IMG/VR virus record: IMGVR_UViG_3300029705_000018
Strand: one strand, 5' to 3'
DNA: 13,979 bases
Source: a virus
Lineage: Duplodnaviria; Heunggongvirae; Uroviricota; Caudoviricetes
Each line of letters opens with the position of its first letter. Within the stretch, counting starts at the first letter, position 1. Both the position numbers and the translations under genes were made by a program. Below are positions 3,997 to 12,906 of the stretch, piece after piece. The notes below the pieces were generated by a model that did not search any database, had not been told where the DNA came from, and saw only the letters and a program-made list of their open reading frames with translations.

Positions 3997-4749
3997 TCAA
4001 GAGATTGGTAAGTCAGGCTCACGCACGAGATATTTATCGCCCATTATCATTTCTAATGTAATTTTATCTTTTTCCCAATATGGGATACGAACCAATGGGA
4101 TATTATGGGTTAATGCATATTCATTTTTAACAGCATCCCTTTGTTTTTGTAATTCTAATCCACCCCACTTATCAACACTATGATAATGTTGTTCTCCGTC
4201 AAATTCAATAAGGCGTACTATTTTATCATTTTCAACAATAGCAAAATCAAAACGACTTTTTGGCAAATCTAAAAATACATATTCCTCAATGAAATTAATA
4301 CCTTCAAAGATTAAACAATTTAAAACATTGGTCGCACCAACTGAACGATGATAACAGCCACAAGAAACGGTTCTATTTTCATCTTTTCTGCGCAATTCAT
4401 GGCCTCGAACTTCAATAATTTTTCCACAATCGCATTGACAAATCCAATATAATTCTCCGCCATTTCCTTTGCGCTCACTGCGTTGTTTAACAACCAATTT
4501 ACCAAATCGTTTGTTTAACATTTCTTCTTCACTTTTTTGGTATTTTGCTTTTCTTAATTGCTCTTGACGATAGCAACCACAGCTCGATATATCACCATTT
4601 CTCAATGAGATACTTTTTACACTTTTTATTGTGCCACATTCGCACTAACATATCCAATAACTGCCACCAGTTGTTTTTCTATTTTTATCTCTCTCTAAGA
4701 CAGTTAATTTACTAAATTTTTGATTTGTTAAATCTATTAATTTAGACAT
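3997..4749 (-). CDS. 250-aa putative homing endonuclease: two Cys-rich (WxCxCxCG...SCGC) DNA-binding repeats plus a C-terminal PD-(D/E)XK (DUF559/Vsr-like) nuclease domain
   Basis: SD AAGGAG then ATG at 4749 (MSKLIDLTNQKFSKLTVLER...YWIC(TAG)CECG); the second repeat reads YWICQCDCG; the C-terminus has RFDFAI...LIEFDGEQHY...RDAVKNEYA...LVRIPY. Confidence 0.8.
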
Positions 4750-4861: not shown

Positions 4862-6373
4862 TTAGCCGATAACCTCATAGCGAGGAGAGTCCAACTTCTC
4901 CATCATAAGATCCCAGCCAGTTTTGCCAGAAAGAATCTGTTCAAAAATACTAGGACTCATACCAGAAACATAAGAAATGTCTCTTACTCCAATATCTTCA
5001 GGGATATTGTTCTGTCTTGCCTGAACGTTCCAGTAGATAAGCTTAGGCATACGGTACCCATGACGAGCCCACTTATCTCTAATAGACTCCATCAAGGTCT
5101 GAGGGTTCCAGGATTGACGACCATAACCATGACCAGTTCCTGCATCAAATTCCATATCTGACAGAATTAGAATGTTCTGAGGCAGCTCATCCTGGCCGCA
5201 ACCATTATTCAGAGCGGTCTGCAGCAACATATCGAAGGTGGCTTCGATGTTGGTGCTCTCACACAGGTTGGTGCGGTAGATACGATAGACCTTGTCGCAG
5301 AAGTCTACGCCGCTGGTCTCGATCAGCTGAGGACGAGTGGAGAAAGATACGTAGTGGTTTGCGAAGGGGCCGTTAGCACGCTCGGCGCAGTACAGACCCA
5401 GGGAAATAGCTACGTTCAGAGGAGTTGCGTCACCGCCGTACCAGGTCATGGAAGCGGAGGTATCAACAACAGCCAGACCATTGAAGGACTTGCCGTTGAA
5501 GTAATCCTGCAGGTTCTCCCAGTACTTGTTCACCATCAGACGATCGGTGTTATCGATAGGCAGATGGCAAGCACGCAAAGCCTTGGAAACAACCTCGTAA
5601 GGATACAGAGCCTTGGCGTTAACCTTGGTGGTAGTATCCTTGGCGAAAGCCTCGTAGGTCTTGACCTCGGGATTGCGCTTCATACGCTCAATGTCGTGAC
5701 GAGCAAAGGCGTTCTTGTACTTGATACCGGCCTTAGAAGGGATCTTATCGAACTCGATCTCATCCCAACGACCCTCGGACATCAGACGCTCCAGGACGTT
5801 GATGCGGGCACGCAGAACAGACAGAGTCTTACGGTACTGCTTGGGGGTCATGCCAATGAACTTACGAACCTTGGCAGCAGTCTTCTTAGTCTTCACAGAG
5901 GAAGTGTTCTCAGAAGGCATCCACTTACCCAGCAGAGAAGGGGTCTTACATTGGACGTCCAAAGCCAGCTGATGTTTGACGATGTTCAGTGCGTCAGCCT
6001 CCAGAGGAGTACCGATGAACACGAACAGGTCATCCCATCGACCGAACTCAGGGACGTGAGTCAGGTTACGACGCATAGCGTCAGTATCGTAGGAAGCCAG
6101 CCACTTAGTAGCGACACGGAAGAACCGGCGCTCACCCTGGCCACCGCGCACGTCACGGATGTAGAACAGACACTTCAGAGCGTAAGAAGGATTCTCGTCG
6201 AAAGCCTTCTTAAACAGGAAGATAACATCTTCATCGGTGCGGGTACGGTAGGCCGCACCCATAGCGAACAGGTCCATCAGACCGTCCATGGTAGACTTAT
6301 GAGTCAGGGCACCATTCTCAGTGCGAGTGTAGTTAGAAGCGGACTTCATACCTTCCAGAAAAATATTGCTCAT
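4862..6373 (-). CDS. 503-aa DUF2828-family (TROVE/Ro60-like) protein with a C-terminal vWA domain
   Basis: TENGA, LFYIRDVRGGQGER, PEFGRWDDL and KWMPSE motifs of DUF2828; MIDAS motifs VVDTSASM and ILSDMEFD; SD AGGAG; noticeably higher GC than the flanks; no TAG codons. Confidence 0.8.
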   Translation of the reverse strand: MSNIFLEGMKSASNYTRTENGALTHKSTMDGLMDLFAMGAAYRTRTDEDVIFLFKKAFDENPSYALKCLFYIRDVRGGQGERRFFRVATKWLASYDTDAMRRNLTHVPEFGRWDDLFVFIGTPLEADALNIVKHQLALDVQCKTPSLLGKWMPSENTSSVKTKKTAAKVRKFIGMTPKQYRKTLSVLRARINVLERLMSEGRWDEIEFDKIPSKAGIKYKNAFARHDIERMKRNPEVKTYEAFAKDTTTKVNAKALYPYEVVSKALRACHLPIDNTDRLMVNKYWENLQDYFNGKSFNGLAVVDTSASMTWYGGDATPLNVAISLGLYCAERANGPFANHYVSFSTRPQLIETSGVDFCDKVYRIYRTNLCESTNIEATFDMLLQTALNNGCGQDELPQNILILSDMEFDAGTGHGYGRQSWNPQTLMESIRDKWARHGYRMPKLIYWNVQARQNNIPEDIGVRDISYVSGMSPSIFEQILSGKTGWDLMMEKLDSPRYEVIG

Positions 6374-6495: not shown

Positions 6496-7596
6496 TTACA
6501 TTGCACTGGACTTATCGGTATTGCATCGGCGGCACAGCATCTGACAATTGGACTCAATTGTCTTACCGCCCTTAGACCAGGGAATGATATGATCGGCGTG
6601 CATGGAAGTTCGAGCATAGTGCTTGCCGCAGATGGGGCAATAACCCTTCTGCTTCTCATAAACACGACCCTTAACTGCTTCGGGGAAAGTTCGAATACTC
6701 AAACACTTTTCGTCACCGCTCAGAACGTAGGCATAAACACCCTTTCTCTTGGTGACTTCTTCATCAGCCATCAGCTTGCTGACCATTTCTTCCAGCTCGT
6801 CGGGATCAAGATCTTCTTCACCGAATTCATTATACAACAGACCCCACTGGACACCCTTCATATCTTTACGATAGTTAGGGAAAGTTTCCTTTACCCAGTT
6901 CATTACATTCATAAAATAATCAACCAGGTGTTTTGCATTTTCATCCAGGTGATGCTGAGCCATATACTCAACAATATGTTCTTTACCACCAGAAATCCAA
7001 GTCAAAACAGTCTCCAGAAGATCCTGTCGATTAGGAGTGCCAGTCATATAATCGGCCGCAATCTGAGAAGCGGGGCAGTTGGTCTTAGAGAAAAACTTCT
7101 TTGCAGAAGTAAGCCAAGCGCCAGTAAAGTTGACATTTCTTAGCTCCTGGTCATTCAGCTTTTCGCCGTATGTATTAACGACACGGAACCATTCCATCTG
7201 TTCCTCTTTAGTACCTTCGCAGATATAAACAGATAACTCGTAGTTCAGAAAATCTTCATAACGCTCGGGATAAGTCTTCTTCCAGTTATGGATATACATA
7301 TCCTGGAAGTTAAAACCACCAGTAGCGAAAGAACAAATGGAAAGAGTTCTCTGCTGGCCATCAAGCACCTCAAAGGTACCATCGCAGTTATCGACCCAAT
7401 ACATGGTATTCAAAGGAAAGCCATGCATAACTGTATTGATAACAGCAACCTGTTGATCAGGTTTATAAATGAATTCTCGCTGATACTTAGGGCGTACATT
7501 TAACTTGCCGCCATAAGCTACAACGCCATTCTCTTCGTCATTTTCATATCCTGCAATAATTTCTCGAATAGCAATCTTCTTCTCGGTAATCTTCAT
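6496..7596 (-). CDS. DUF262 (ParB-like, GmrSD-type) plus C-terminal HNH endonuclease
   Basis: PKYQREFIY, VLDGQQRTLS, FRVVNTYGEKLN (DUF262 motifs); CPICG...HADHIIPWSKGGKTIESNCQMLCRRCN (HNH). Start taken at ATG 7596; the track's GTG at 7605 is possible. Confidence 0.85.
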   Translation of the reverse strand: MKITEKKIAIREIIAGYENDEENGVVAYGGKLNVRPKYQREFIYKPDQQVAVINTVMHGFPLNTMYWVDNCDGTFEVLDGQQRTLSICSFATGGFNFQDMYIHNWKKTYPERYEDFLNYELSVYICEGTKEEQMEWFRVVNTYGEKLNDQELRNVNFTGAWLTSAKKFFSKTNCPASQIAADYMTGTPNRQDLLETVLTWISGGKEHIVEYMAQHHLDENAKHLVDYFMNVMNWVKETFPNYRKDMKGVQWGLLYNEFGEEDLDPDELEEMVSKLMADEEVTKRKGVYAYVLSGDEKCLSIRTFPEAVKGRVYEKQKGYCPICGKHYARTSMHADHIIPWSKGGKTIESNCQMLCRRCNTDKSSAM

Positions 7597-7627
7597 CCAT
7601 ATCACCTTTCCTTATCTTTGTATATAT

Positions 7628-7694: not shown

Positions 7695-8885
7695 TTAATA
7701 CAAATAACTCATATCCATAGAAGTTCGCTTAATTAAAACTCGTGCAAAAATCTTCTTACCATTTAAATACAAGCTGCCGCAGCCAAAACAAGATTTGTCA
7801 GAAAAAGAAGAATTTGCAATCAGCTCAAACTGATCAAGACAGTGATGATTAACATATGTGATGGGAACTGCCATTACACCAGCATAATCAGAAGGGATGT
7901 TTTCTACTCTACCCACCAAGATAATATCAGAATTATCCAAAGTTGGATATGACTCTCTCTTATTAGTATCAGAGTAATAGGTCGCAGTTAACATCAGAGG
8001 ATCATCTCTCCTGGAAACCTTAAGATTGGTATACCAGGAAACTGCAGGAACTTTACCAATTTTATTACCGTCTTCATCGATAATATCACTCTCGTAATCG
8101 TCGGGCATGGTAAACTTCATAGTAGCATTGGTTTTATAACCATACCACATATTACCCATCTTGAAATTGTAGAACACATTTTTCAAATTGATAGAAGTGT
8201 TATTACCAAGGATTAAAAATTTCTTCTTATGATCCATCAGTAAGTCAATTAATTTATTGAACTCACTAAAAGGAGGATTCGTGATAACAATATCACATTT
8301 ATCCAGTTCTTCAATGCTCTCATCAGACAGGAAACTACCAGTGCCCTGCAAAGGAGTTTCGATAATCACAGAGGGGTCACTGTCTTCCACAGTATACTTC
8401 ACAGCCTGACCTTCTGGAGCATAAGAAATGCCAACCAAACGGGTTAAGCCAAAAGCATCAAAATTCTTGAAGAAGTAAATAAAGAAATTACTATTCGGAC
8501 TGTCATTACAGTTACAGAAAATAGACTTGCCATAAAATTGCTGCTTATAACGGAAACATTCAGCTTCAATCTCGCTCATAAGAGTATAAAACTCATTCTT
8601 TTTAGCTTTCTTGGCTTCATTGCCCTTTGCATTAGTGCAACCCTTTTTGGATTCAATCTTATCCATCTCTAAGAGTTCATCAATGTTTTCAACAAAACCG
8701 TATTTAACCGGAGTACCGGCAATCTTATACATATAACCGCGAGTGACAATACCATTTAAAGTTGCGGCACGGATCGTCTCACCGCTCTTTGCGCTCAGTT
8801 CTGCTGCGCTAAACACGCGATCCTTAAAGTGCTTGAGCGCCAGATCAAACGCATTTTGACCTTTTTCAGTAAAATTACTAGGCAT
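7695..8885 (-). CDS. Adenine-specific DNA methyltransferase, EcoRI family, with an ~85-aa N-terminal extension
   Basis: AKKAKKNEFYT, GKSIFCNCND, GTGSFLSDES and DIVITNPPFS (motif IV), YAGVMAVPIT; SD AAGGAG. Confidence 0.85.
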   Translation of the reverse strand: MPSNFTEKGQNAFDLALKHFKDRVFSAAELSAKSGETIRAATLNGIVTRGYMYKIAGTPVKYGFVENIDELLEMDKIESKKGCTNAKGNEAKKAKKNEFYTLMSEIEAECFRYKQQFYGKSIFCNCNDSPNSNFFIYFFKNFDAFGLTRLVGISYAPEGQAVKYTVEDSDPSVIIETPLQGTGSFLSDESIEELDKCDIVITNPPFSEFNKLIDLLMDHKKKFLILGNNTSINLKNVFYNFKMGNMWYGYKTNATMKFTMPDDYESDIIDEDGNKIGKVPAVSWYTNLKVSRRDDPLMLTATYYSDTNKRESYPTLDNSDIILVGRVENIPSDYAGVMAVPITYVNHHCLDQFELIANSSFSDKSCFGCGSLYLNGKKIFARVLIKRTSMDMSYLY

Positions 8886-10065: not shown

Positions 10066-10519
10066 TTATTGCCCTTACTTGATACCGTTCAAGCGGACTT
10101 CAGAGGACGGGCAAACCCCTCAGACTTTCTGCGCTGGGCGTCATCTACACCCCAAACCCACACATCCGGGACTCTTCTCGGTTATCGCGCGCTTCCGACT
10201 ATGTTTGCTTAGCCATAGCAGCATATTCCCTTTGCTGATTTGCGCTTCCCTATGCAGGGAACGACTTCGGCTACATTGGCTCAGAAGCCTCATTCTTTCT
10301 AGGAGGTCATGCCATCAGCACCGCATGAGGGTTTCAGCTTTACCCACAAGCAATCAATAATCTCTATGCAGAAATCATTGGACAGTTTTTCACCCATTCA
10401 AGGCGTAGTCATGGATAAAAGCTACCCCCTCATTACTTGGGCCTGACAACTCTGGTAGTGGCTCCACAAGCACTCCCATGACGAGTCCTTGCTTCATCGC
10501 CGCCGCATTCCGCGGGATA
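10066..10519 (-). ncRNA. Candidate large structured ncRNA (~450 nt; ROOL/GOLLD-like)
   Basis: No SD-led ORF; many hairpins, e.g. TTCCCT-GCAT-AGGGAA (10246-10261), ATTTCT-GCAT-AGAGAT (10360-10375), CCTCAT...ATGAGG, CTATG...CATAG, GAGG...CCTC, CTTGA-ACGGTA-TCAAG; lies in a tRNA cluster. Confidence 0.6.
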
Positions 10520-10520
10520 A

Positions 10521-10666
10521 TGGTCGGTAGCCTTGGACTCGAACCAAGGCCCACAGAACTCACTAACTTACGCACCTTGCCTTGCCGTGTATCCGGATTG
10601 GCCGCACCGATGTTACATAAGGTTTTGGAACTGTTTATTCAGATACCCTACACTGAATCACTACCG
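10521..10666 (-). ncRNA. 146-nt tRNA-like RNA with a 74-nt insert in place of the anticodon loop (possible intron-containing tRNA-Trp(CCA))
   Basis: Acceptor CGGTAGT/GCTACCG + A + CCA; D stem TTCA/TGAA; T arm CTTGG-TTCGAGT-CCAAG; anticodon stem ACAG/CTGT enclosing 10630-10557. Confidence 0.75.
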
Positions 10667-10669
10667 ATA

Positions 10670-10748
10670 TGGTCCGCCCTCTGGGACTCGAACCCAGAAC
10701 CCCTTGATTAAGAGTCAAGTGCTAACTAGCCAATTGAGCTAAGGGCGG
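10670..10748 (-). tRNA. tRNA-Lys(CTT)
   Basis: CCGCCCT/AGGGCGG, A73-CCA, CTTGA-CT-CTT-AA-TCAAG. Confidence 0.9.
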
Positions 10749-10753
10749 ATAAA

Positions 10754-10918
10754 TCAATCATAAAGGATTTCAATATTATGGTACTTACAATATTCCAACC
10801 AGCATTTATAACACTTGTGCTCACGCTCCCAAGGTTCATAACAAGTGGTTGCTACGGTGCAGAAACAAATAGTCGGACAACGGCCCGCATCTATTTCTTT
10901 ATCAATATTGATTCCCAT
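10754..10918 (-). CDS. 54-aa Cys-rich hypothetical protein
   Basis: SD GGAGGA then ATG at 10918: MGINIDKEIDAGRCPTICFCTVATTCYEPWEREHKCYKCWLEYCKYHNIEILYD, TGA at 10754. Below the track cut-off. Confidence 0.65.
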   Translation of the reverse strand: MGINIDKEIDAGRCPTICFCTVATTCYEPWEREHKCYKCWLEYCKYHNIEILYD

Positions 10919-10929
10919 AATACTGTCCT

Positions 10930-11245
10930 CCAAAAGGATAAATCAAGAAGCCAGCTGAACCTCTTGGATTTTTACAATAAGCACATAATCGGACGCCTCT
11001 CCAGTGCAACCTCAAGCGGCCTGTCACCCAACATTAGCTTTATGCCGGGACTGTCCTTCTGCACTCTAGCACAATATCGCGCTACCCTTTGCTTTCTTAT
11101 TGTCAAGTTTACTCTTGGTGAGTTTCTCGGTCGTCCTCACTCACAACGGCAATACTTATTGCTTGGTCATCTCTATTTTACGGCAGTCGGATGGCTAAGT
11201 GCCGGTAAGCAGTAAAGAAATCAGTAATTTGTTTCTTCCTTTATC
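10930..11245 (-). ncRNA. Candidate ~300-nt structured ncRNA or long structured leader with its own promoter
   Basis: Nested stems: CGGCA/TGCCG, GCAAT/ATTGC, GTGAGT/ACTCAC, ACAATAAG/CTTATTGT, AGTGCA/TGCACT, CCCGGCAT/ATGTTGGG; no SD-led ORF. Confidence 0.5.
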
Positions 11246-11255
11246 TTACATAAAT

Positions 11256-11284
11256 ATTATATCATATTTTTTTATAAAAATCAA
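11256..11284 (-). promoter_or_regulatory. Conserved phage promoter copy
   Basis: TTGATT (11284-11279), 17 nt, TG-A-TATAAT (11261-11256). Confidence 0.8.
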
Positions 11285-11437
11285 ATATGATAAAAACAAC
11301 GAGAAAGGCTAATCTTAGGGCTTAGGTCGGGTCTAATTTCTAGACACCCGATTGCCACTTAGTCCCTACTGTAAAACCTTACTCGTCCCAAAAGGCGGTT
11401 CTGAGGAATTTCTCCCGTGCGCAAAAGCAGAACCGGT

Positions 11438-11514
11438 TGGTGCGCCGGGCGGGGCTCGAACCCACGACCCCCTGCTTAAAAGGCAGGTGCTGCTACCGAC
11501 TGAGCTACCGGCGC
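11438..11514 (-). tRNA. tRNA-Lys(TTT)
   Basis: GCGCCGG/CCGGCGC, A73-CCA, CCTGC-CT-TTT-AA-GCAGG. Confidence 0.95.
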
Positions 11515-11529
11515 ATATAAAGAAAAATT

Positions 11530-11553
11530 GGGCGGAGTAGATGCCCTCCGCCC
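11530..11553 (-). terminator. Terminator-like hairpin just upstream of tRNA-Lys(TTT)
   Basis: GGGCGGAG-GGCATCTA-CTCCGCCC followed by AATTTTTCTTT. Confidence 0.5.
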
Positions 11554-11556
11554 ACG

Positions 11557-11650
11557 AGGCACTAAAAATAACTATGTAAAAGGTTTTTTATATTTTGATC
11601 GTCTAAAATGTAAAATGTCTTTTTCTTGTTATTATTTGCTGGATGTGCCT
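11557..11650 (-). repeat. Stem-CAGCAA motif element, copy D
   Basis: AGGCAC-AT-CCAGCAA ... AT-rich interior ... GTGCCT. Confidence 0.65.
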
Positions 11651-12831: not shown

Positions 12832-12906
12832 TGGCAGCGGCGGTGAGAATCGAACTCACATCCGAGGTTTTAGAGACCCCTGTCCTGACCTTTGAACGAC
12901 ACCGCA
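12832..12906 (-). tRNA. Amber-suppressor tRNA(CTA), Gln-type
   Basis: GGGGT-CT-CTA-AA-ACCTC anticodon arm (anticodon at 12873-12871); U1xU72 mismatch and G73 resemble tRNA-Gln; encoded CCA. Confidence 0.92.

What the first reader, a model, noticed from the sequence alone, without database searches (positions are those of the whole stretch)
10521..10666. tRNA-shaped RNA with a 74-nt structured insert replacing the anticodon loop
Seen: an intact acceptor (C1-G72, A73, CCA; Pro-like identity), D arm and T arm start 3 nt after the CCA of tRNA-Lys(CTT). The insert starts TTCCAA and folds (AAC-TTATG/CGTAAGTT, CATC/GGTG, GTG-CGG/CCG-CAC). Removing 67 nt (10624-10558) at the canonical 37/38 position would give the loop UU-CCA-AU, i.e. 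tRNA-Trp. The junction resembles an imperfect bulge-helix-bulge (UUCC/GUGA, one mismatch). The insert is too short for a group I intron. So this is either protein-spliced, archaeal/eukaryal-style intron use in a phage, or an unspliced tRNA mimic or decoy.
Basis: partly seen in the sequence, partly recalled or inferred. Interest (0 to 1): 0.8.

Follow-up and report, generated by a model that had tools for sequence, protein, structure and literature searches.

The report
Unspliced tRNA-shaped phage RNA
A large gut or rumen phage encodes a very strongly conserved 146-base RNA with a tRNA body but a 74-base folded arm where the anticodon loop should be. It is most likely a non-decoding tRNA look-alike used as a stable carrier or partner RNA, not a tRNA with an intron.

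Summary
On the minus strand (10666 to 10521), 3 nt after tRNA-Lys(CTT), lies a 146-nt RNA with a 7-bp acceptor stem, D arm, canonical T arm, A73-CCA and a 74-nt insert.

It is real and selected:
- Eight full-length copies at 94.5% identity or more occur in other phage and metagenome contigs.
- Homology starts and stops at the RNA's own ends.
- It is better conserved between two phages (94.6%) than their true tRNAs (80-91%).
- Stem substitutions keep pairing, apart from one A.C intermediate.

The intron reading is poorly supported:
- With the insert cut out in any of 8 registers, ARAGORN still finds no tRNA-Trp.
- The core is non-canonical (G8; bacterial tRNA-Trp needs G73, this has A73).
- Body and insert never occur apart.
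- The insert is about as conserved as the body.
- No splicing endonuclease or RtcB gene is in a 98%-complete carrier genome.
- RNA-library contigs hold only the unspliced form.
- Both phages also carry a normal tRNA-Trp.

Best reading: an unspliced tRNA-scaffolded small RNA, matured like a tRNA. Its partner is unknown; a Ro60-fold protein gene lies 1.5-4 kb downstream. The closest known kinds are T4 species 1 RNA and YrlA-type Y RNAs. The scan had noted this RNA before in another genome.

The parts
10521..10666 (-). Whole 146-nt tRNA-shaped RNA (RNA position p = 10667 minus the window position)
   Evidence: Sequence. Full-length copies at 94.5-95.9% identity in 8 other contigs. Model R1 scores them 181-185 bits.
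10660..10666 (-). Acceptor stem, 5' strand (RNA 1-7)
   Evidence: 7/7 pairs with 10525-10531. Changes C70>U and C67>U in other copies give G.U.
10521..10531 (-). Acceptor stem 3' strand (RNA 136-142), then A73 and the encoded CCA (RNA 143-146)
10638..10657 (-). D-like arm: UUCAG / CUGAA with the loop UGUAGGGUAU, preceded by G8 A9 (not U8)
   Evidence: The change A13>G keeps the pair as G.U.
10631..10635 (-). 'Anticodon' stem, 5' strand (RNA 32-36)
   Evidence: Pairs with 10552-10556. G36-C111 becomes A-U in L085/L088. A32.G115 becomes A-U in L087.
10552..10556 (-). 'Anticodon' stem, 3' strand (RNA 111-115)
10557..10630 (-). 74-nt insert domain (RNA 37-110). It begins UUCCAA and holds the tandem GGCAA GGCAA.
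   Evidence: About as conserved as the body: 9 variable positions in the 67 nt that splicing would remove, against 7 in 79 nt of body. No Rfam family at E up to 10.
10565..10624 (-). Outer insert helix with a bulged C (RNA 43-51 with 95-102), enclosing the second helix (RNA 55-58 with 91-94) and the apical region
   Evidence: Pair 50-96 is seen as U.G, C-G and U-A. Pair 49-97 is seen as A-U and G.U.
10591..10598 (-). 8-nt palindrome AUCCGGAU (RNA 69-76). The second allele, ACUCGAGU, differs at 4 linked positions and is still self-complementary.
   Evidence: The four changes always occur together (L010, L086, X15 record 1).
10532..10548 (-). Canonical T arm: CUUGG-UUCGAGU-CCAAG (RNA 119-135)
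   Evidence: Invariant in all copies.
10670..10748 (-). tRNA-Lys(CTT) immediately upstream (3-nt spacer); probably co-transcribed
   Evidence: ARAGORN and Rfam. No terminator-like site lies between them. A promoter-like site is at 10946-10917.
4862..6373 (-). Context only: gene for a Ro60-fold (TROVE plus vWA) protein, 4.1 kb downstream on the same strand. A possible but unproven partner.
   Evidence: phrog_850, DUF2828 and DUF7788. AlphaFold2 model with mean pLDDT 78. The top 13 Foldseek PDB matches are all Ro60/TROVE, best E = 3.7e-8.

Best explanation
This is an unspliced, non-decoding small RNA built on a tRNA scaffold.

Inferred steps: it is transcribed as part of the phage's polycistronic tRNA array, directly behind tRNA-Lys(CTT). 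Its intact acceptor/T-arm/D-loop 'elbow' and encoded CCA let the host tRNA machinery cut it out (RNase P at the 5' end, 3' trimming) and keep it stable.

Shown: the anticodon loop is replaced by a 74-nt irregular helical arm whose sequence is conserved almost base for base.

Inferred: that arm is the working part, a docking surface for a protein or another RNA, and the tRNA body is a handle. My split within this reading:
- about 0.25: a Y-RNA-like partner of the Ro60-fold protein encoded downstream;
- about 0.2: a decoy or sponge for a host factor that binds or cuts tRNA;
- about 0.1: self-association through the 8-nt palindrome;
- the rest: unknown.

Shown: it is an accessory, recombining module, present in some phages of the group and absent from a complete relative.
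For: (1) It is a discrete module. In other contigs, homology to the window begins at 10666-10670 and ends at 10520/10521, with unrelated flanks. This is seen in RNA-library contigs (for example X27 record 16, 1990 nt) and in the alignment with flanks.

(2) Conservation is extreme. The element is 94.6% identical between the window phage and the L010 phage. Their orthologous tRNAs are 80-91% identical and the Ro60-like gene is 68%. The insert varies about as little as the body.

(3) Body and insert never separate. Exact-pattern scans of IMG/VR with the 3' body, the 5' body and the insert all return the same four contigs. There was no hit in GTDB genomes or in cultured phages.

(4) It is not a decodable tRNA.
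- ARAGORN finds nothing at its default threshold after excision in any of 8 registers, and only nonsense folds at a lowered threshold. All 39 real tRNAs of the genome are called.
- The Rfam tRNA model gives no hit at E up to 10.
- The core has G8, two nucleotides between the D and anticodon stems, and a 3-4 nt variable loop (sequence).
- The discriminator is A73, while the phage's true tRNA-Trp has G73. Both carrier phages have a canonical tRNA-Trp(CCA).

(5) There is no splicing apparatus: no tRNA_int_endo or RtcB in G000 or in the 98%-complete carrier G001. At 67-74 nt the insert is too short for group I or II introns. No ribozyme family was hit.

(6) Metatranscriptome contigs from three studies contain the full unspliced element and no joint across the insert.

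(7) Precedent in the same phage group: tRNA-shaped RNAs whose anticodon arm carries a CAGCAA-type module (L037, L009), and a YrlA-like element in this window.

(8) A Ro60-fold gene lies 1.5-4.1 kb downstream on the same strand in all five contigs with enough flank.
Against: - CCA sits exactly where an anticodon would be. Excising 67 nt leaves a formally correct 7-nt loop with U33 and A37.
- Related phages, and this genome, hold more canonical tRNAs with 67-75 nt inserts: Tyr in this genome, Trp and Gln in L026. Some splicing route may therefore exist in this group.
- The RNA evidence is from assembled contigs, which may include DNA carry-over and cannot show a rare or small spliced product.
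- Only four distinct sequences were available for the pair count, so covariation is not statistically significant (239 of 500 shuffles do as well).
- The insert's fold is no more stable than shuffled sequence.
- Against Ro60 as the partner: the RNA lacks the terminal Ro-binding stem and the GNCGAA(N)G motif of YrlA. Only 3 distinct carriers were found among the 80 Ro60-like loci kept, plus the window's own genome. The complete genome G003 has the protein without the RNA.
Confidence: 0.65

Rival explanations
1. It is an intron-bearing tRNA with anticodon CCA. The 67-nt insert would be cut out at position 37/38 by proteins (a host or phage endonuclease plus the phage's RNA-repair ligase and kinase set) or by an unrecognised small ribozyme. 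The result would be a second, perhaps regulated, tRNA reading UGG.
For: - Excision leaves the loop UUCCAAU, closed by a covarying G-C/A-U pair.
- CCA and the loop are invariant.
- Other tRNAs of this phage group carry inserts of similar size in the anticodon loop.
- 'Enigmatic', highly conserved introns are reported in Lak megaphage tRNAs (PMC6784885).
- Earlier notes of this scan, which I did not check, report Rnl2-type ligase and kinase genes elsewhere in this genome.
Against: - The spliced product is not called as a tRNA in any register.
- It has G8 and A73 instead of U8 and G73.
- No bulge-helix-bulge; no EndA or RtcB.
- The insert is about as conserved as the exons, and the whole element is more conserved than true tRNAs. 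A protein-spliced intron would not be expected to be.
- No intron-less allele was found.
- No spliced joint in RNA contigs.
- A canonical tRNA-Trp is already present.
Confidence: 0.15
2. The insert is a new small self-cleaving or self-ligating ribozyme. It would cut the tRNA-like RNA into halves or remove itself.
For: - Near base-for-base conservation of a 74-nt domain with many unpaired invariant nucleotides.
- Small ribozymes such as theta/HDV-like ones are known next to tRNAs of gut phages.
Against: - No hit to any Rfam ribozyme family at E up to 10.
- No hammerhead (CUGANGA...GAAA) core in the sequence.
- RNA-library contigs run through the element uncut. This is weak evidence, because contigs do not show ends.
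Confidence: 0.07
3. It is a decaying tRNA pseudogene disrupted by an insertion, with no function.
For: Non-canonical core. Not called by tRNA finders.
Against: - It is the best conserved segment of the whole 14-kb window against L010.
- Substitutions in stems keep pairing, apart from one A.C intermediate.
- It sits in several different genomic contexts with sharp borders.
Confidence: 0.03

Closest known systems
Bacteriophage T4 species 1 and species 2 small stable RNAs (rnaC, rnaD; NC_000866 70908-71171)
   Same: - Encoded inside the phage tRNA cluster, a few nucleotides from a tRNA (rnaD lies 1 nt after tRNA-Arg and rnaC 6 nt after rnaD; here 3 nt after tRNA-Lys).
- About 120-140 nt long.
- rnaC has a canonical T arm and a terminal stem, with long hairpins in place of normal arms.
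- Function unknown.
   Different: - No sequence similarity.
- T4 rnaC has no encoded CCA.
- It does not keep a D arm plus a single extended anticodon arm.
- A different phage group and host.
YrlA-type bacterial and phage Y RNAs bound by Ro60/Rsr (Rfam RF02553; Chen et al. 2014, PMC4201824)
   Same: - A tRNA mimic with T arm, D arm and acceptor-like stem, encoded near a Ro60-fold gene.
- M. smegmatis YrlA is cut by RNase P and receives CCA.
- The anticodon-arm position carries a non-tRNA module.
   Different: - Topology: in YrlA the 5' and 3' ends form the Ro60-binding stem and the acceptor is a closed hairpin. Here the ends are the acceptor.
- No GNCGAA(N)G motif.
- No RF02553 hit on the candidate, whereas a separate element at 12920-13027 does hit.
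- Not present in most phages that carry the protein.
'Enigmatic' tRNA introns of Lak megaphages (Devoto et al. 2019, PMC6784885)
   Same: - Short inserts in tRNA genes of gut phages that use an alternative genetic code.
- The insert sequence is near-identical across samples.
- No known splicing mechanism.
   Different: - Lak cases were called as tRNAs once eukaryotic settings were used, and alleles with and without the insert exist.
- Here the body is not a callable tRNA, and no insert-free allele was found.
Engineered 'tRNA scaffold' RNAs, in which the anticodon arm is replaced by an RNA of interest
   Same: Same architecture and the same presumed logic: the tRNA body gives processing and nuclease resistance, and the anticodon arm carries the cargo. 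This comparison rests on my own knowledge.
   Different: Those are man-made. This one is natural, and its cargo is unknown.

Membership tests
Canonical tRNA (Rfam RF00005) | Scores above the family threshold (29 bits) or is called by tRNA finders | tested here: not met
   No RF00005 match at E up to 10 over 10400-10800 apart from the neighbouring tRNA-Lys. ARAGORN is negative with and without the intron option.
Canonical tRNA (Rfam RF00005) | 7-bp acceptor stem, T arm with a UUCRANY loop, D loop with GG, 3' NCCA | tested here: met
Canonical tRNA (Rfam RF00005) | 7-nt anticodon loop on a 5-bp stem, and the conserved core (U8, A14, 4-5 nt variable loop) | tested here: not met
   74 nt lie between the stem strands. 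The core has G8, 2 nt between the D and anticodon stems, and a 3-4 nt variable loop (sequence).
Intron-containing tRNA-Trp | Removing the insert gives a recognisable tRNA with the identity elements of bacterial tRNA-Trp (CCA anticodon, G73) | tested here: not met
   ARAGORN finds nothing at its default threshold in 8 excision registers and never a Trp fold at lowered thresholds. The discriminator is A73, while the genome's real tRNA-Trp has G73.
Archaeal/eukaryal protein-spliced tRNA intron (bulge-helix-bulge) | Two 3-nt bulges on opposite strands, separated by a 4-bp helix, at the splice sites | tested here: not met
   The fold has a 2x2 internal loop (UU/UU), then 3 bp with a bulged A, then an asymmetric loop.
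Archaeal/eukaryal protein-spliced tRNA intron (bulge-helix-bulge) | Splicing endonuclease (PF01974) and RtcB ligase (PF01139) available | tested here: not met
   None in G000 or in G001 (98% complete, carries the RNA), G002 or G003. The host genome is unknown.
Archaeal/eukaryal protein-spliced tRNA intron (bulge-helix-bulge) | Spliced junction present in RNA | tested here: inconclusive
   No joint across the insert in contigs of 4 RNA-library runs. Contigs cannot show rare or small RNAs.
Group I intron in a tRNA anticodon loop | Catalytic core P3-P9, about 200 nt or more, and a match to Rfam Intron_gpI | tested here: not met
   The insert is 67-74 nt. No Rfam hit.
YrlA / Y RNA (RF02553) | Encoded close to a Ro60/TROVE gene | tested here: met
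   A Ro60-fold gene lies 1.5-4.1 kb downstream on the same strand in all contigs with flank. The whole tRNA island shares this synteny.
YrlA / Y RNA (RF02553) | The 5' and 3' ends pair into a Ro60-binding stem carrying the GNCGAA(N)G motif | tested here: not met
   The ends form the acceptor stem. The motif is absent; the nearest string is GGCAAG (sequence; motif taken from PMC4201824).
YrlA / Y RNA (RF02553) | Binds Ro60 | not testable with these tools
   Needs immunoprecipitation or gel shift. The complex predictor takes proteins only.
T4 species-1-type stable RNAs of phage tRNA clusters | Non-tRNA stable RNA with an acceptor-like stem and T arm, encoded a few nt from a tRNA in the cluster | tested here: met
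   Position and architecture, compared with T4 rnaC and rnaD. This is an architectural class, not a homology family (no similarity).
Known self-cleaving ribozymes (hammerhead, twister, pistol, hatchet, HDV-like) | Match to the family model or core motifs | tested here: not met
   No Rfam match at E up to 10.

The most novel reading that the evidence does not exclude
The insert is a genuine intron, removed by a protein-dependent cut-and-rejoin pathway not known in bacteria or their viruses (for example an anticodon-loop nuclease plus the phage's Rnl2/kinase repair set). This would make a conditionally produced second CCA-anticodon tRNA. The other 67-75 nt inserts in tRNA-Tyr, Trp and Gln of this phage group would then be spliced the same way.

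A second novel reading is also not excluded: the RNA pairs with itself through the 8-nt palindrome, and the two alleles AUCCGGAU and ACUCGAGU act as pairing-specificity types.
Probability: 0.12. Interest if true: 0.85.

Novelty: new variant of a known kind. Interest (0 to 1): 0.5.

Why it matters
Large gut and rumen phages carry long tRNA islands whose 'gaps' turn out to be full of conserved RNAs. This one shows that a tRNA body can be reused as a self-processing, stable scaffold for a different RNA module, as engineers do with tRNA scaffolds and as T4 species 1 RNA and Y RNAs hint.

It is the most conserved stretch of its neighbourhood and moves between phages as a unit, so it must give a benefit. 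Finding its partner (the Ro60-like protein, a tRNA-targeting defence nuclease, or itself) would assign a function to a class of phage RNAs that has been unexplained since the 1970s.

It also warns annotators that 'tRNA with an intron' calls in phages can be non-decoding mimics.

Tried and rejected
- **Known RNA families.** Rfam at gathering and at E up to 10 gave nothing on the element.
- **ARAGORN with introns of 0-400 nt.** It does not call the candidate. Most of its 80 'intron' calls in related loci are two adjacent tRNAs merged.
- **Distant homologues.** Model R1 over 1.4 Mb of related loci finds only near-identical copies plus ordinary tRNAs at 32 bits or less. blastn against cultured phages found nothing. 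GTDB genomes gave no exact match to the 3' body.
- **Insert-free or body-free relatives.** Short-word blastn of exons and insert separately found none.
- **Homology between this insert and those of the genome's interrupted tRNA-Tyr or L026 tRNA-Trp/Gln.** None is evident, and the insertion sites differ: 37/38, 32/33 and 33/34.
- **Membership of the 'closing stem plus ACAGCAA' family of this window.** The candidate lacks CAGCAA. Its nearest string, ACGGCAA, is within chance expectation.
- **Thermodynamic support.** Not significant: z = -0.69 for the whole RNA and -0.15 for the insert.
- **Covariation statistics.** Not significant with four distinct sequences.
- **In silico dimer folding.** Uninformative, because any stem can swap between two copies.
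- **Profile search of the Ro60-like protein against PDB sequences.** No hit. Only the fold comparison found Ro60.
- **TROVE Pfam search of the contig.** Negative, because the protein is too diverged from that model.
- **Depth in RNA libraries.** Not used as a measure of expression, since the data are contigs.
- **Literature searches** for DUF2828 and for T4 species 1 RNA returned nothing useful.

Full report
**1. What is there**

All tRNA genes of the window lie on the minus strand. Reading 10666 to 10521 on that strand gives a 146-nt RNA. RNA position p equals 10667 minus the window position. Its parts are:

- a 7-bp acceptor stem (CGGUAGU / GCUACCG; C1-G72, U7.G66);
- G8 A9;
- a D-like hairpin (UUCAG / CUGAA) with GGG in its loop;
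- two unpaired nucleotides;
- a 4-5 bp stem, (A)ACAG / CUGU(G);
- 74 nt between the strands of that stem, beginning UUCCAA;
- a 3-4 nt variable region;
- a textbook T arm (CUUGG-UUCGAGU-CCAAG);
- A73 and an encoded CCA.

It starts 3 nt after the CCA of tRNA-Lys(CTT) (10670-10748). Every detail in the finding is correct, including that removing 10558-10624 leaves the loop UUCCAAU. ARAGORN, with or without the intron option, and the Rfam tRNA model do not call it.

**2. Context**

The window is the start of an IMG/VR virus contig of 138.8 kb, estimated 67% complete. The contig has 39 canonical tRNAs, among them a normal tRNA-Trp(CCA) with G73 and an amber suppressor tRNA(CTA). Public runs that hold it are animal gut, faeces and rumen samples.

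The tRNA island also holds other odd RNAs:
- a YrlA-like permuted tRNA mimic at 12920-13027;
- a partial OLE-like match;
- orphan T arms;
- outside the window, a tRNA-Tyr with a 67-nt insert.

The 503-aa gene at 4862-6373 (phrog_850, DUF2828 plus DUF7788) folds like Ro60. The AlphaFold2 model has mean pLDDT 78. The 13 best Foldseek matches in the PDB are all Ro60/TROVE proteins (best E = 3.7e-8), including Ro60 of Thermus phage phiLo and Deinococcus Rsr.

**3. Is it real and selected?**

- Exact-pattern scans and blastn found full-length copies, 94.5-95.9% identical, in four IMG/VR contigs and four metagenome contigs.
- Patterns taken from the 5' body, the 3' body and the insert each return the same four IMG/VR contigs. 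Body and insert therefore always travel together, and no insert-free allele turned up.
- It is single-copy in G000 and in G001, which is 98% complete. It is absent from G003, a complete relative with terminal repeats. It is therefore an accessory module.
- Between the window phage and the L010 phage the element is 94.6% identical. Orthologous tRNAs are 80-91% identical and the Ro60-like gene is 68% at the DNA level. The element is the best-conserved segment of the whole window.
- Homology begins and ends at the RNA's own termini. L010, L085, L086 and L088 have a different 5' flank and a different 3' flank. L087 combines their 5' flank with the window's 3' flank.
- RNA-library contigs likewise match only 10520/10521 to 10666/10670, with unrelated sequence on both sides.

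**4. Structure**

Four distinct sequences were available for counting, and the laid contigs add further variants.

- All changes in the acceptor, D and insert stems keep a standard pair (G-C to G.U, A-U to G.U, U.G to C-G or U-A).
- The closing pair of the 'anticodon' stem changes on both sides (G36-C111 to A-U in L085 and L088). L087 has an A.C intermediate there.
- The A32.G115 mismatch becomes A-U in L087.
- With so few sequences the shuffle control is not significant (239 of 500 shuffles do as well).
- The fold energy is not better than that of shuffled sequence.

One feature stands out. RNA 69-76 is the palindrome AUCCGGAU. The other allele, ACUCGAGU, differs at four positions, is again perfectly self-complementary, and the four changes always occur together. 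A hairpin within one molecule cannot use these pairs. Possible explanations are pairing between two RNA molecules, a site read at the DNA level, or a templated mutation.

The apical fold has competing registers, because GGCAA is repeated in tandem.

**5. Intron or mimic?**

Against an intron-bearing tRNA-Trp:

- (a) After excising the insert in any of the eight registers that leave a 7-nt loop, ARAGORN finds no tRNA at its default threshold. At lowered thresholds it finds only nonsense folds and never CCA/Trp. It calls all 39 true tRNAs of this genome, and even the interrupted tRNA-Tyr.
- (b) The core is non-canonical (G8, extra junction nucleotide, short variable loop). The discriminator is A73, whereas the phage's tRNA-Trp has G73, the base that bacterial TrpRS requires (established knowledge).
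- (c) The junction is not a bulge-helix-bulge.
- (d) No splicing endonuclease or RtcB is encoded in G000, G001, G002 or G003.
- (e) At 67-74 nt the insert is far below group I or II size, and no Rfam ribozyme matches.
- (f) The insert is about as conserved as the 'exons'. A protein-spliced intron would not be expected to be.
- (g) Both carrier phages already have a canonical tRNA-Trp.
- (h) Contigs from four RNA-library runs in three studies hold the unspliced form, and none joins across the insert. This point is weak, because contigs do not report rare or small molecules and may contain DNA.

For an intron:

- The formally perfect loop after excision.
- The invariant CCA.
- More canonical tRNAs with 67-75 nt inserts exist in this genome and in L026.
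- 'Enigmatic' conserved tRNA introns are reported in Lak megaphages (PMC6784885).

**6. Most likely mechanism**

I read it as an unspliced, non-decoding RNA on a tRNA scaffold.

- Inferred from architecture and from the known substrate rules of RNase P and tRNA 3' processing: it is co-transcribed with tRNA-Lys. There is no terminator-like site between them, and a promoter-like site lies at 10946-10917. It is then cut out like a tRNA and stabilised by the tRNA elbow.
- Shown: the 74-nt arm is under near base-for-base constraint and moves with the body as one unit.
- Unknown: what the arm binds.

A Y-RNA-like role with the Ro60-fold protein is attractive, for three reasons:
- Bacterial and phage Y RNAs are tRNA mimics encoded next to Ro60, and mycobacterial YrlA is cut by RNase P and receives CCA (PMC4201824).
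- The gene lies 1.5-4.1 kb downstream in every context with enough flank.
- Relatives have tRNA-shaped RNAs with CAGCAA-type modules in the anticodon arm.

The candidate fails the defining Y RNA features, however: it has no terminal Ro-binding stem and no GNCGAA(N)G motif. It is also missing from most phages that carry the protein, including the complete G003. A decoy for a tRNA-binding or tRNA-cutting host factor, or self-association through the palindrome, remain open.

**7. Comparison with what is known**

- The closest architectural precedent is T4 species 1 and species 2 RNA: stable RNAs of unknown function, encoded a few nucleotides from a tRNA in the T4 tRNA cluster. Species 1 has a T arm and a terminal stem. 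There is no sequence similarity to the candidate.
- YrlA-type Y RNAs share the tRNA mimicry and the Ro60 neighbourhood, but not the topology.
- Lak phage tRNA 'introns' share the puzzle, but those genes are callable tRNAs with insert-free alleles.
- I found no Rfam family and no paper describing this RNA.
- Earlier notes of this scan had already recorded the same 146-nt look-alike in another genome, as well as similar tRNA-shaped RNAs elsewhere. I used them only as leads.

**8. Verdict**

This is a real, strongly selected, mobile, undescribed member of the broad kind 'tRNA-derived small stable RNAs of phage tRNA clusters'. Interest is moderate (0.5). It would rise sharply if splicing, a defined partner or self-assembly were shown.

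Noticed in passing
window 12920-13027 (-): A YrlA-like RNA: T arm, closed acceptor-like hairpin and D arm in permuted order. RF02553 scores 40.8 bits (E about 1e-7), below the gathering score of 69. The outer Ro-binding stems do not fit the model. It lies next to the amber suppressor tRNA(CTA).
   Followed up: partly
window 4862-6373 (-): A DUF2828/DUF7788 protein (phrog_850 'RNA-binding protein') folds like Ro60: the top 13 PDB matches are all Ro60/TROVE. The Pfam TROVE model and PDB sequence searches miss it. More than 8000 relatives exist in metagenomes, and 175 viral loci encode one.
   Followed up: yes
window 10383-10502 (-): A second discrete conserved module lies just downstream of the candidate. 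RNA-library contigs of two runs match exactly this stretch, with unrelated flanks on both sides (X27 record 14, X28 record 19). There is a weak Rfam 'drum' match (20-22 bits).
   Followed up: no
window 11298-11387 (-): A partial match to the 3' part of OLE RNA (RF01071, 52.9 bits against a gathering score of 50) in whole-window scans. It was not reproduced when only 11200-11560 was scanned. It is 84% identical to L010:8229-8298, where it sits just upstream of the candidate's copy.
   Followed up: partly
G000:C1:16799-16952 (-), outside the window: A tRNA-Tyr(GTA)-like gene with a 67-nt insert before position 32/33. Its D loop has no GG and its T loop reads UUUGAGU. Its T arm and 3' end resemble those of the candidate.
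   Followed up: partly
L026:4073-4220 and L026:14044-14193: Related phage: a tRNA-Trp(CCA)-like gene with a 71-nt insert after U33 (C8, A73), and a tRNA-Gln(CTG)-like gene with a 75-nt insert. Both inserts are closed by a long terminal helix.
   Followed up: partly
G000:C1 25851-25912, 25936-25996, 12683-12699, 19062-19078, 26862-26878 (-): Canonical T-arm motifs outside annotated tRNAs. Two of them close into roughly 70-nt tRNA-like units without CCA.
   Followed up: no
window 12832-12906 (-): An amber suppressor tRNA(CTA).
   Followed up: no
L010:8483-8653 (+): In the L010-type context a 56-aa cysteine-rich ORF with a good ribosome-binding site starts 16 nt after the candidate's CCA. The window has a different downstream sequence.
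   Followed up: no
L037:2184-2305 and L009:9182-9310: tRNA-shaped RNAs ending ACUA whose anticodon arm carries a GUCAGCAA or GCAGCA string. They resemble the 'closing stem plus ACAGCAA' RNAs of this window (13054-12919, 12762-12671, 11880-11825, 11650-11557).
   Followed up: partly
window 3997-4605 (-) and 6496-7605 (-): An HNH or homing-endonuclease-like gene and a GmrSD_N plus HNH gene flank the Ro60-like gene. An EcoRI-type adenine methyltransferase lies at 7695-8885.
   Followed up: no
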